Position numbers: made by a program. Shown one piece after another: positions 18,001-21,000 of a DNA stretch of 21,095 nt. Origin of the DNA: a virus (taxonomy: Duplodnaviria > Heunggongvirae > Uroviricota > Caudoviricetes). Position 1 is the stretch's first letter. Each line of letters begins with the position of its first letter. The stretch is taken from IMG/VR virus record IMGVR_UViG_2534681832_000043; one strand, 5' to 3'.

Positions 18001-21000
18001 AATTTTTTGCAACTGCGTCCGACCAGTACGCACACGATGGCGGGGGATACCATGAAACTGTTCTCTACACGAGACAGAGTGGTGGTGATGTGTTGATTAT
18101 CGGCGTATATGCGCACAGGACGCGCTATGACGATGTTTTATGCGGGTACACCAATCACATGTATCTGGTGTGATAAATCGCGTTACATGACCTCTCTGTT
18201 GTGCTGGTGGTTATCACGACGTTCTGAATCTGGCTTTTGTCTGATATTTTGCGACAAGTACGCGCGCGTAGCATCGAAATTATCGGATGGCGTATGCTGC
18301 TGGCAATATGAAGACCGATAGTATTAACCGAAAAGCGATTAAGGAGTGCCAACTTTTCAGTAGAGAAACTAGCCAGCACAGGGAAATGTAGAAATTACCC
18401 AATTAATAGGTAAAAGTTATTGACACACCCTGTAGTGGATAACGATATGAATAAAAACCACATATAGTGGTTTTTCGTTAGTGATGATAGTATCTATGTT
18501 AGTTTCCTAAGTAACTGTGCATTGACATGTGGATAACTTCGGATAGAGTTACAATCAACTGAGCCCGGCCCCCTGGCTTTATCTTGTCTTAGATGAGAAA
18601 TTGTTATGGCCGGGCCTTCTTGTATCTGGAGGTAGGAAACCTTTTGTATGGCTGTTCCGGTTAAGGTTCATAAAGAATATGATGAACTTGTCGATTTATT
18701 GCTGTCTCGGGGTATGGATGTGCCAGATCGCGAACATGCTATCAAGAAAATCTCACAAGTAGGCTACTACCGATTATCAGGCTTTTGGTACCCCTGCCGA
18801 ATCCCCCATATAACAACAGACAATATTAGAACCAGACTCGATCAGGTTCGTCCAGGTACTAATTTTCGCGCAGTATATGACCTCTATTTATTCGATAAAA
18901 ATCTGCGTTTGCAGATGATGAATGCGTTAGAACGCATTGAGGTTTATGTTCGGTCAGTTATTGCTCATGAGCTTGGTAAGATATCTCCTTTAGCATATCT
19001 TGATGACTCGCTAATAAATCCAAAACACTTTAGACCACGTTCCCATGGTCGCCCAAGCGCCAGAGAAGAATGGATAAATAAACATAATGCCGAGATTGCT
19101 AAAAGTCGCGAAGACTTTATCAAATGGCATGAAAACAAGTACGAAGGTCTTCCTTTCTGGGTGGTTATTGAAGTGTGGGACTTCGGCTTAATGTCAAAGT
19201 ATTATGCGATGCTAAAAGACAGCTATCGCAACAGGATACTATCTAGGCTAGGGATAGCGGCAGGCAATGGAGCTATCTTCCAAAACTGGCTTAGCGCAAT
19301 GAATGTGCTAAGGAATCGGTGCGCTCACCATTCACGCATCTGGAACAAGGTCAACGAACCAAGATTAATGCCTTTGCCAAATGAGCCGTACTTTGAACAA
19401 TTAAATATGAATGATGATGCGTACGAAAGAATGTACGGAATGATCGCTGTGTTATGGTTTTTAGTGAAAAAAATTGGACCGGGATCTGACTGGATAAAAA
19501 AAGTTGCCAACCTTGTAGATAACAAGCCTAACTTACCAGGATGTAACCTGACAGCCATGGGATTACCTGATAATAACGGTTTCCCAAGGCATTTATTTGA
19601 TATTGAATAAATTATAGCGATGGCGCTGAATGTAGCGCCACTGATAACTTTTCAGCATTGCTTCCCTGACGCTTCCACGCGCTATAAATATCTTTATCCC
19701 ATGCCTTACCAGCTTTTGTTTGATAGCCTGCTTCATTGATCCGTTCAGCTATCACGCGCCCATTATCAAATCCCTGTCGGATGGTATCGGCAATGATCTT
19801 TATAACTGCCGTTTCGTTATATGGCTTTGGTGGGATGTTCGGCTTTCCGGCAATAAGCGACGCAGCGGCTTTTTCCATGCGCTCCACCAGCCCAAGCATT
19901 CGTGAATCAATAGACTTTTCCGGCTGTCCCAGCTTCATGCGAATCGCATCAACAAGCCAGGAGGTTTTATCCCCTCCAGAAGCGAGAACAGACCGATTAA
20001 ACTCATCCTGCAATTCAGATGGGATGCGGAACGCGACCAGATTAGATTTGCTCATTGCAAAGACCATATCAGTGAGTAATATCCATACAGTATACCACTG
20101 TATAACACTGTTATACGCTCAAATATTAGCCAGAAAATAACGGACCAATCACAAAGCTATCGCTGTGTTGTTGGTTCAGAGCTGGGCTGTGTTGGTTCAA
20201 AATGAGTTGATGTTGGTTCAATATTTTAGAAAAAACACAATAAAAACAACGATCTTTACAAATTGAACCAACTGAACCAACTGAACCAACACCTTTTTGC
20301 TTATCTATATAATCTGAGAGACAGAAATGATAAGGGACAGGAAAGCTGAAGAGCTGGAGTCAAAAGGGCTATACCGGAGAGCTGCCGCACGATGGGCAGA
20401 AGTCATGATGCTGGCAGATGGCGATAAAGAACGTGAACATGCAGCAAACAGACGCTCTGAATGTATCCGTAAGGCGGCACGCCCACCAGCAACTACAGAC
20501 AGATTCGGAGATTTAAGACAGGCAGTTAAGCGAACTCATTCGGCTCTTGGTATGGATGAGGAAGCGAGAGGGTACTTCAGGCGTTATCGCGATAAAGATT
20601 GCCAGAGACAGTAATGCTCTCTCTGTTTTGGCAAATTACCCCTCACTTTGAAGGGATCGGAGCTATAAAAATGGTGTTATCCGGCTTCCTGCATTGCAGG
20701 TTTTCGAAAAAATCAATGGGTTAGGTCATCGTGCAAATTTGCACTCTGCCAGCCAACGCAATTTCTCGTTGGCGAAAATATCAGGTATTTACTGAACGAA
20801 CGGTCTACCAGTCTATTCAGTTACCAGTTGCACATGGCTGTTTCATGTGAGAACGGAGGTTTTTTCGGACATCACTATTGGGTACAGCAATTTCACGAGC
20901 AATACGCGCGCGCAGGACAACAAGCCTGAACATGATTACACACCTCGATCGTGAGGGATGTAGACAATGGCTTCTGACCAAAGCACCCAAAAAAACCGTG

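What the first reader, a model, noticed from the sequence alone, without database searches (positions are those of the whole stretch)
19612..20320. Iteron array with 21-bp phased direct repeats and tandem inverted repeats beside an RHH protein gene
Three GTTGGTTCA copies are spaced exactly 21 bp apart (two helical turns), followed by six contiguous 9-bp inverted copies, in the divergent promoter region between the RHH gene and the PerC-like gene. The geometry resembles plasmid centromere, operator or origin sites bound cooperatively by RHH dimers. It may be an autoregulatory operator, a partition-like site or a second origin.
Basis: partly seen in the sequence, partly recalled or inferred. Interest (0 to 1): 0.5.

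Follow-up and report, generated by a model that had tools for sequence, protein, structure and literature searches.

The report
Orphan satellite-island replication origin beside perC
The repeat array is a displaced copy of the replication origin used by a family of phage-satellite islands (PICIs), sitting next to the perC gene in an island that has lost the matching replication protein, so it is an ordinary known element in an unusual place and not a binding site for the neighbouring small regulator.

Summary
The repeats are real, but there are three inverted copies, not six. GTTGGTTCA occurs at 20170, 20191 and 20212 (21-bp spacing). An 81% A+T spacer of 43 bp follows, then three contiguous inverted copies (20264-20290).

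This is the published layout of SaPI/PICI replication origins: two opposed iteron sets flanking an AT-rich region. The array aligns colinearly with the origin lying 26 bp after a TOPRIM-DUF927 primase-helicase gene in a sister island (EC-10).

- In IMG/VR, 71 of 83 such arrays start 27-89 bp after a DUF927 gene.
- Across species, DUF927 genes carry 6-12 copies of a 9-mer at that position, and the 9-mer changes with the protein's extreme C-terminus.
- The window's own primase has a different helicase module (DUF5906) and different iterons (ACCTRTACC, 9457-9559). The GTTGGTTCA array therefore has no cognate initiator here.

The RHH reading fails. Homologues of the neighbouring protein (69-76% identity) lack the array. 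They keep a different conserved block, TATACCAnTGTATAACnnTGTTATAC (20091-20116), which is the likelier operator. The RHH fold itself is plausible but unproven.

Verdict: a known kind of element, here as a displaced orphan copy fixed 37 bp upstream of perC. Low to moderate interest.

The parts
20170..20220 (+). Iteron set 1: three GTTGGTTCA copies at 20170, 20191 and 20212, 21 bp apart, so on the same helical face
   Evidence: The same dispersed spacings (11, 21, 32, 42/43 bp) recur in 76 distinct arrays.
20221..20263 (.). AT-rich spacer (43 bp, 81% A+T). By analogy with SaPI/PICI origins this is the presumed melting region.
   Evidence: The spacer sequence ATTTGTAAAGA..TTGTTTT is conserved with the Rep-adjacent origin of EC-10. 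The layout is described for PICI and SaPI origins in PMC6092414 and PMC9371898.
20264..20290 (-). Iteron set 2: three contiguous 9-bp copies (TGAACCAAC x3 on the + strand), ending 37 bp before the perC ATG
   Evidence: The 37-bp distance to perC is found in 7 of 7 perC-linked arrays in IMG/VR.
20327..20614 (+). perC, a PerC-family regulator gene and known accessory gene of E. coli PICIs. It is the last gene before attR.
   Evidence: Pfam PerC E = 2.6e-33. PMC6092414 states that some E. coli PICIs carry perC. Island end located.
19612..20055 (-). 147-aa protein of unknown family: an RHH-compatible N-terminus plus a well-folded C-terminal helical domain. It is not linked to the array.
20091..20116 (.). 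Conserved block TATACCAcTGTATAACacTGTTATAC, containing the palindrome GTATAACA-n-TGTTATAC. It lies 36-61 bp upstream of the 147-aa gene and is the likelier operator/promoter element of that gene. It is separate from the iteron array.
   Evidence: (I12). The block is invariant in 5 loci at 69-100% protein identity, while DNA further upstream is unrelated.
7073..9427 (+). Resident primase-helicase (zinc ribbon, TOPRIM, DUF5906). It is not the DUF927 type that goes with GTTGGTTCA iterons.
9457..9559 (+). Resident origin: ACCTRTACC 9-mers in two sets around an AT-rich stretch, 30 bp after the primase stop. A second cluster of the same 9-mer lies at 10568-10670.

Best explanation
The array is a copy of the replication origin of a family of enterobacterial phage-inducible chromosomal islands (PICIs).

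How the origin works in this family (inferred from the characterised SaPI and EcCICFT073 systems): the initiator is a self-loading primase-helicase of the DUF927 (SaPI Rep / Cch-like) type. Its C-terminal winged-helix region binds the 9-bp iterons on both sides of an AT-rich stretch. It melts that stretch and loads one hexamer on each side.

What is shown here:
- The array has the defining layout of such an origin.
- It is sequence-homologous, in inverted orientation, to the origin that lies directly 3' of the DUF927 gene in sister islands.
- The iteron sequence changes together with the Rep C-terminus across species.
- The window's island encodes a different helicase module (DUF5906) with its own, different iterons.

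What is inferred:
- In this island the GTTGGTTCA array is an orphan. It cannot be fired by the resident initiator.
- It is either an inert relic kept because it is fused to the perC upstream region, or it fires only if a DUF927 Rep is supplied in trans by another island.
- The neighbouring RHH-like protein most likely binds its own conserved palindromic block at 20091-20116, not the array.
For: Layout:
- Three iterons, a 43-bp spacer of 81% A+T, and three inverted iterons.
- This matches the published definition of PICI/SaPI origins: two iteron sets pointing in opposite directions, flanking an AT-rich region (PMC6092414; PMC9371898).

Homology:
- The reverse complement of the array aligns colinearly with the origin 26 bp after the TOPRIM-DUF927 gene of the EC-10 island. 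The tandem triplet, the spacer motif and the dispersed copies all match.
- In ABWA45 and 21AR0133 both halves lie together right after a DUF927 gene.

Association:
- 71 of 83 arrays in IMG/VR start 27-89 bp after a DUF927 3' end.
- The only coding similarity shared by L005 and L001 is the DUF927 segment. L005 and the window share only the array.

Specificity:
- Of 61 evaluable DUF927 loci from different species, 49 carry a 9-mer repeated at least 4 times within 450 bp 3' of the gene. In 31 of these it is GTTGGTTCA.
- The rest carry variants such as TGAGACAAC, GAACCGAC and TAACCCGT. These go with changed extreme C-termini of the protein.

Three initiator types, three 9-mers, one geometry:
- EcCICFT073: CTGTCTACC. 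This origin was tested experimentally in PMC6092414.
- DUF927 type: GTTGGTTCA.
- The window's DUF5906 type: ACCTRTACC.

Homology of the initiator:
- The DUF927 module matches PDB 8tch 'Pathogenicity island protein' (E = 1e-11) and the Cch helicase 5dgk (E = 0.007).

Orphan state:
- The window's primase C-terminus is DUF5906, not DUF927.
- Remnant islands keep the array with no primase at all (CH4797).
- One DUF5906-lineage island has lost four of six iterons and the spacer but kept perC.
Against: - No binding or replication experiment exists for this sequence. Rep-iteron recognition is inferred from position, covariation and analogy.
- In the window the array is not 3' of any rep gene, so one defining positional feature fails.
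- The perC-linked copies always end exactly 37 bp before the perC ATG, with the tandem triplet proximal. This could mean the array has been co-opted as a promoter element and is not a mere relic.
- All E. coli copies are 95-99% identical. Retention of six perfect iterons therefore says nothing about selection.
- I did not test whether the source genome carries a DUF927 Rep elsewhere.
Confidence: 0.78

Rival explanations
1. Co-opted promoter element. The tandem iterons next to perC act mainly as a regulatory site for perC transcription. The binding factor would be a DUF927 Rep (coupling perC to island induction) or some other protein.
For: The distance from the last iteron to the perC ATG is a fixed 37 bp in 7 of 7 IMG/VR cases, and also in L001, L002, L003 and the window. 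A TATAAT hexamer lies at 20308-20313, with no good -35 hexamer and the iterons in its place. The array-perC unit recurs with different left-hand genes.
Against: The consensus promoter scan finds nothing in this region. The same distal half-origin precedes unrelated genes, or no gene, in ABWA45 and 21AR0133. perC is kept in an island where four iterons and the spacer are deleted. A fixed distance is also what simple common descent of near-identical copies would give.
Confidence: 0.12
2. One reading: an operator, or a type Ib/II-like centromere, bound cooperatively by dimers of the adjacent RHH protein. The role would be autoregulation or partition.
For: The array lies in the divergent region next to a protein whose N-terminus has an RHH-compatible pattern. 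Short phased or contiguous repeats are typical of RHH sites. That last point is general knowledge and was not tested here.
Against: Only 3 of 83 arrays adjoin this gene. Four homologues at 69-76% identity have no GTTGGTTCA within 330 bp upstream of the gene, yet keep a different invariant block next to it. The array occurs with perC and no RHH gene. No ParA/ParM-like gene is annotated in the island.
Confidence: 0.04
3. A functional second cis-acting replication site of this island, analogous to the crr region of satellite phage P4, which works together with ori at a distance.
For: Sister islands (EC-10, L086, L104) carry two GTTGGTTCA arrays 7-8 kb apart together with the cognate DUF927 Rep. 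The window's own ACCTRTACC iterons also form two clusters about 1 kb apart. P4 needs both ori and crr (general knowledge; P4 is mentioned in PMC6092414).
Against: The window encodes no DUF927 Rep, so this cannot apply to the GTTGGTTCA array here. Many DUF927 loci have only a single 4-6 copy array next to rep. Nothing shows that the distal copy is required.
Confidence: 0.05
4. Arm-type binding sites of the island integrase.
For: Three tandem sites facing dispersed inverted sites resemble the arm sites of lambda-type attP. This is general knowledge and only a lead.
Against: The att core (CAGATTCAGAATAT in ETEC1721) lies at the very end of the window, about 790 bp from the array, with perC in between. 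A different repeat, GTGTACATA, flanks both attL and attR. The array also occurs in islands with a different integrase and a different att site (thrW).
Confidence: 0.01

Closest known systems
Replication origins of Gram-negative PICIs (EcCICFT073 pri-rep-ori; Fillol-Salom et al. 2018, PMC6092414)
   Same: 9-bp iterons arranged as a contiguous tandem set, an AT-rich region, and dispersed inverted copies. Same element class: int, alpA-like HTH, primase-helicase, origin, and perC as an accessory gene.
   Different: The iteron sequence differs (GTTGGTTCA versus CTGTCTACC) and so does the initiator family. In the window the array is 10.7 kb from the primase gene, in inverted orientation, and the resident initiator is of a non-cognate type.
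SaPI origins with Rep (self-loading MCM-like helicase with a C-terminal winged helix; PMC9371898) and SCCmec Cch
   Same: 6-12 iterons, an AT-rich centre, and at least two iterons on each side pointing in opposite directions. The DUF927 module of the cognate Rep is a sequence homologue of PDB 8tch and 5dgk.
   Different: SaPI iterons are penta- or hexanucleotides, whereas these are 9-mers. SaPI origins are always immediately 3' of rep.
Satellite phage P4 ori/crr with alpha primase-helicase
   Same: A primase-helicase initiator that recognises short repeats in two separated cis regions. This resembles the sister islands, which carry two arrays 7-8 kb apart.
   Different: There is no sequence relationship to the P4 repeats. 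A requirement for the second site was not tested. The comparison rests on general knowledge, not on a tool result.
RHH operators with contiguous or phased sub-sites (omega of pSM19035, ParG, Arc/Mnt)
   Same: Short repeats in direct and inverted orientation within a divergent promoter region.
   Different: The array does not co-occur with the RHH-like gene. A separate conserved palindromic block does.

Membership tests
PICI/SaPI-type replication origin | Two sets of short iterons in opposite orientation flanking an AT-rich region | tested here: met
   Three plus three copies around a 43-bp spacer of 81% A+T. Definition taken from PMC6092414 and PMC9371898.
PICI/SaPI-type replication origin | Located immediately 3' of the rep (primase-helicase) gene | tested here: not met
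   In the window the array is 10.7 kb downstream of the primase stop (9427) and abuts perC. Homologous copies do meet the criterion: 71 of 83 arrays, 27-89 bp after a DUF927 gene, and L001.
PICI/SaPI-type replication origin | Sequence homology to an origin adjacent to its rep gene | tested here: met
   Colinear alignment with the EC-10, ABWA45 and 21AR0133 rep-adjacent arrays, including the spacer motif.
PICI/SaPI-type replication origin | Cognate initiator encoded by the same element | tested here: not met
   The window's primase has a DUF5906 C-terminus and ACCTRTACC iterons. GTTGGTTCA goes with DUF927.
PICI/SaPI-type replication origin | Iteron sequence co-varies with the initiator | tested here: met
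   Eight or more iteron variants occur 3' of DUF927 genes, each with a distinct extreme C-terminus. Three initiator types have three different 9-mers.
PICI/SaPI-type replication origin | Rep binds the iterons and the region supports Rep-dependent replication | not testable with these tools
   Shown experimentally only for EcCICFT073 and SaPIs (PMC6092414, PMC9371898).
RHH-protein operator or centromere | The site accompanies the gene of the binding protein across homologues | tested here: not met
   Absent upstream of four homologues at 69-76% identity. Only 3 of 83 arrays adjoin the gene.
RHH-protein operator or centromere | The adjacent protein has a ribbon-helix-helix fold | tested here: inconclusive
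   No significant Pfam, NCBIfam or PDB match. RHH_1 at E = 0.18 for one homologue. The AlphaFold2 monomer N-terminus has pLDDT 45-68, with helices at 13-25 and 30-41. Foldseek gives no hit.
Plasmid partition locus (ParA/ParM plus RHH centromere-binding protein plus centromere) | A partition NTPase gene next to the site | tested here: not met
   The neighbours are Abi_2, the 147-aa protein and PerC. No ParA-like product is annotated in the whole island.
Integrase arm-type sites | Within roughly 200 bp of the att core, and specific to one integrase | tested here: not met
   The array is about 790 bp from the att core, with perC between. It is present in islands with different integrases and att sites.

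The most novel reading that the evidence does not exclude
The perC-proximal origin copy is not a relic but a trans-responsive element. When a co-resident PICI expresses a DUF927 Rep, that Rep would bind the array and either replicate this otherwise non-cognate island (a satellite hitch-hiking on another satellite's initiator) or switch perC on or off. The second option would couple a LEE-type virulence regulator to satellite induction.
Probability: 0.12. Interest if true: 0.55.

Novelty: new member of a known kind. Interest (0 to 1): 0.3.

Why it matters
The result corrects a plausible mis-annotation. Phased short repeats beside a small DNA-binding gene are not necessarily that protein's operator. 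Here they are the origin of a satellite island.

It also yields three practical points:
- The GTTGGTTCA 9-mer, with sister variants such as TGAGACAAC, GAACCGAC and TAACCCGT, marks DUF927-type PICI origins. The variants map candidate specificity residues to the last ~30 residues of the initiator.
- These islands exchange the helicase-plus-origin module as a unit while keeping the TOPRIM primase domain. The exchange leaves orphan origins behind.
- The accessory region (ejection-protein genes, Abi, perC) lies between two inverted origin copies in sister islands. This may bear on how cargo is acquired.

None of this changes the current understanding of PICI replication.

Tried and rejected
- The sigma-70 promoter and terminator scan of 19500-20750 found no promoter-like site. 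No promoter is claimed.
- Rfam at gathering thresholds found nothing in 19600-21095. An RNA-gene explanation is dropped.
- A search for an attR repeat of the thrW tRNA in EC-10 gave only a 12-mer chance match. The window turned out to be the yicC-dinD version of the island, and its att core was found there.
- A PDB sequence search with the profile of the 147-aa family and with its N-terminus gave only noise. Foldseek on the AlphaFold2 model gave no hit below E = 1.
- Full-text searches for the tandem iteron 18-mers found no paper. The 9-mer alone hits only unrelated primers. The iteron sequences in Fig. 2a of PMC6092414 are not held as text, so I cannot say whether GTTGGTTCA is already drawn there.
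- The LexA-box reading of the 20087-20116 block was rejected by eye. It reads ACAG-N7-CTGT, not CTGT-N8-ACAG.
- Integrase arm sites and a partition centromere were rejected, as set out under the rival explanations.
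Full report
**Observation.**
GTTGGTTCA occurs exactly at 20170, 20191 and 20212 on the + strand, with start-to-start spacing of 21 and 21 bp. Its reverse complement TGAACCAAC occurs three times head to tail at 20264-20290. These are the only exact copies in the window. With one mismatch allowed there are 13 matches against 5.2 +/- 2.2 in shuffles. In the sister locus L001 there are 13 exact copies against 0.25 expected. The 43 bp between the two sets are 81% A+T, against 52% for the window. The array lies in the 271-bp divergent region between ORF 19612-20055 (-) and perC 20327-20614 (+), which matches Pfam PerC at 2.6e-33. 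The last iteron ends 37 bp before the perC ATG.

**Context.**
The window is an integrated island of Escherichia coli. It begins at the integrase start codon and ends in attR. The same island lies between yicC and dinD in strain ETEC1721, where the att core is CAGATTCAGAATAT. A close relative with another integrase sits at thrW in strain EC-10.

Gene order is as follows:
- integrase, then an AlpA-like HTH protein;
- AntA/AntB, DUF4222 and Ash-family proteins;
- small ORFs, then the primase-helicase;
- P22-like gp14/gp7/gp20/gp16 ejection-protein genes;
- Abi_2, the 147-aa protein, and perC.

Unidirectional int-alpA-primase islands that carry perC are what Fillol-Salom et al. call Gram-negative PICIs (PMC6092414).

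**What the array is.**
In EC-10 the primase is a TOPRIM-DUF927 protein. Starting 26 bp after its stop codon there are three contiguous GTTGGTTCA copies, a 43-bp AT-rich spacer, and three dispersed inverted copies. A second array, identical to the one in the finding, lies 8 kb downstream next to perC in the opposite orientation. The reverse complement of the window's array aligns colinearly with that Rep-adjacent array, including the spacer motif ATTTGTAAAGA..TTGTTTT. In two capsid-encoding PICI-like elements (ABWA45 and 21AR0133) both halves lie side by side directly after a DUF927 gene, giving 12 iterons. By tblastx, 21AR0133 and EC-10 share only the DUF927 segment and the array. 21AR0133 and the window share only the array.

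A scan of IMG/VR for two tandem iterons returned 120 loci. Among them are 83 arrays with at least 4 exact copies in both orientations:
- 71 begin 27-89 bp after the 3' end of a DUF927 gene;
- 7 lie 37 bp upstream of a perC gene, and 3 of these also adjoin the 147-aa gene;
- 3 lie at locus edges;
- 2 have neither neighbour.

Neighbour spacings in 76 distinct arrays are 9 bp (129 times), 11 (44), 21 (131), 32 (19) and 42/43 (19). Copies are therefore either contiguous or in helical phase.

**Link to the initiator.**
Starting from the protein and not the DNA, 69 loci from different species encode a relative of the DUF927 module. Of 61 evaluable loci, 49 have a 9-mer repeated at least 4 times within 450 bp after the gene. 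In 31 loci it is GTTGGTTCA. Elsewhere it is TGAGACAAC (5 loci), GAACCGAC (5), TAACCCGT (3), ACCCGAC (2), or a singleton variant: TAACCCAC, TTGTACCA or ACTTATCCC (one locus each). Each variant goes with a different extreme C-terminus. For example...GRGYQRKSPRIxGRQ becomes ...GRGYQGRVREDGRQ in proteins that are otherwise about 87% identical. The DUF927 module is a sequence homologue of PDB 8tch ("Pathogenicity island protein", E = 1e-11) and of the Cch helicase 5dgk.

For SaPI Reps it is established that:
- a C-terminal winged helix binds 6-12 iterons located just after rep;
- an AT-rich centre separates sets that point in opposite directions;
- one hexamer is thought to load on each side (PMC9371898).

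[quoted passage not shown] The EcCICFT073 rep-ori segment was shown to drive plasmid maintenance (PMC6092414). I read that tested origin directly. It has the same geometry with another 9-mer, CTGTCTACC.

**Why it is an orphan here.**
The window's primase (7073-9427) shares the zinc-ribbon/TOPRIM half with the DUF927 proteins, at 73% identity over 346 residues. From residue ~342 on it is unrelated. That part matches Pfam DUF5906 and PDB "Primase" 6k9e/6k9c. Starting 30 bp after its stop codon lies a different iteron set, ACCTRTACC: two contiguous copies, an AT-rich stretch, then one inverted and three direct copies (9457-9559). A second cluster lies at 10568-10670. The helicase module and its origin were thus exchanged as a unit, and the perC-proximal GTTGGTTCA array stayed behind.

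This DUF5906 module is present in 119-140 of 5,426 complete E. coli genomes. Three observations suggest the array needs no Rep to persist and can decay:
- In CH4797 the island is a remnant with a truncated integrase and no primase, yet the array is intact. It is also the only match to the intergenic query in that genome.
- In TBU0218_10-1CC, a DUF5906-lineage island, a deletion removed the third direct iteron, the spacer and all three tandem iterons while perC stayed.
- All E. coli copies are 95-99% identical, so the perfection of the six iterons carries no information about selection.

**The RHH-like neighbour.**
The 147-aa protein belongs to a family of about 143-aa proteins in Enterobacterales. 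The search found 370 homologues, none with a Pfam domain. One source names a member "Arc-like DNA binding domain protein". Its N-terminus (..LVAFRIPSELQDEF..GGDKTSWLVDAIRMKL) fits the strand-helix-helix pattern. Support is weak, however:
- RHH_1 at E = 0.18 on one homologue;
- AlphaFold2 pLDDT of 45-68 over residues 1-67, with helices at 13-25 and 30-41;
- no Foldseek or PDB-sequence hit.

The C-terminal domain (residues 75-140) is confidently folded and has sub-threshold hints to recombinase-like HTH families.

Comparative data decide the binding question. Homologues at 69-76% identity in L014, L037, L051 and L084 have no GTTGGTTCA in the 330 bp read upstream of the gene. All of them keep the block TATACCAnTGTATAACnnTGTTATAC, which is window 20091-20116 and lies 36-61 bp from the start codon. 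Everything beyond it is unrelated. That block, which contains the palindrome GTATAACA-n-TGTTATAC, is the likely operator/promoter element of this gene. Conversely, array plus perC occurs with quite different left-hand genes.

**Mechanism and rivals.**
- Best explanation (confidence 0.78): a PICI origin copy specific for a DUF927 initiator. In this island it is orphaned, so it is either inert or dependent on a Rep supplied in trans. Shown: layout, homology, association, covariation, and absence of the cognate module. Inferred: Rep binding, melting at the spacer, and present inactivity.
- Main rival (0.12, not exclusive): the tandem iterons were co-opted as a regulatory element of perC. The constant 37-bp distance suggests this, as does a TATAAT hexamer at 20308-20313 that lacks a -35 partner. 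Common descent explains the distance equally well, and the promoter scan finds nothing.

**Novelty and score.**
The kind of element is known and has been characterised experimentally in relatives. Three points are new here: the identification of this particular 9-mer family with DUF927 initiators, the existence of a second inverted copy beside perC, and its orphan state after a module swap. I found no text mentioning the sequence, but I cannot see Fig. 2a of PMC6092414. Rating: new member of a known kind, interest 0.3.

Noticed in passing
window 7073-10760: Modular swap in the replication gene. The zinc-ribbon/TOPRIM half is 73% identical to that of DUF927-type primases, but from residue ~342 the protein is DUF5906-type. 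The swap carries its own ACCTRTACC iterons (9457-9559), two small ORFs, and a second iteron cluster (10568-10670). Homology to the EC-10 island resumes near 10760.
   Followed up: yes
window 20091-20116: The block TATACCAcTGTATAACacTGTTATAC (two direct copies plus one inverted copy of GTATAAC) is invariant upstream of every homologue of the 147-aa gene examined. It is the candidate operator of that gene.
   Followed up: yes
L128-L196 (DUF927 loci from 69 species): At least eight different 8-9-mer iterons follow DUF927 genes. Each goes with a distinct sequence in the last ~30 residues of the protein, which is a ready-made map of candidate specificity determinants.
   Followed up: partly
window 11342-17314: A PICI-like island carries homologues of the P22-type gp14 (DUF2824), gp7, gp20 and gp16 DNA-ejection proteins. 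This is unusual cargo for a satellite. In sister islands this cargo lies between two inverted origin copies.
   Followed up: no
window 13393-14606: An IS3-family element (transposase ORFs plus Rfam ALIL frameshift pseudoknot, 121 bits) interrupts the gp20-like ejection-protein gene. It is absent from ETEC1721.
   Followed up: partly
window 4466-4654 and 1269-1335: Rfam hits above gathering score: isrK (65 bits) and C4 antisense RNA (79 bits), both inside the 'ash family' ORF, and int-alpA RNA (61 bits) just after the integrase gene.
   Followed up: no
window 20998-21019 and 21081-21092: GTGTACATAA occurs twice next to the att core at the window's end. Related GTGTACATA copies lie upstream of the integrase gene in ETEC1721 (L198 about 5800-5870). 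These are probably the integrase arm-type sites.
   Followed up: partly
window 18648-20055; L014 11775-13253; L084 10537-11957: The Abi_2 gene and the 147-aa gene are convergent, tail to tail with a 1-nt gap. The pair recurs in two diverged loci, so they may form one module.
   Followed up: no
L006 4120-4165: A natural deletion variant. Only the first two direct iterons remain and are fused directly to the perC leader, yet perC is intact.
   Followed up: yes
window 11164-11325: A 53-aa ORF (MAISVKPVLISEKQMEAIKKIQEEQ...) precedes the ejection-protein genes and is conserved in ABWA45 (64% identity by tblastx). It may be another small DNA-binding protein.
   Followed up: no
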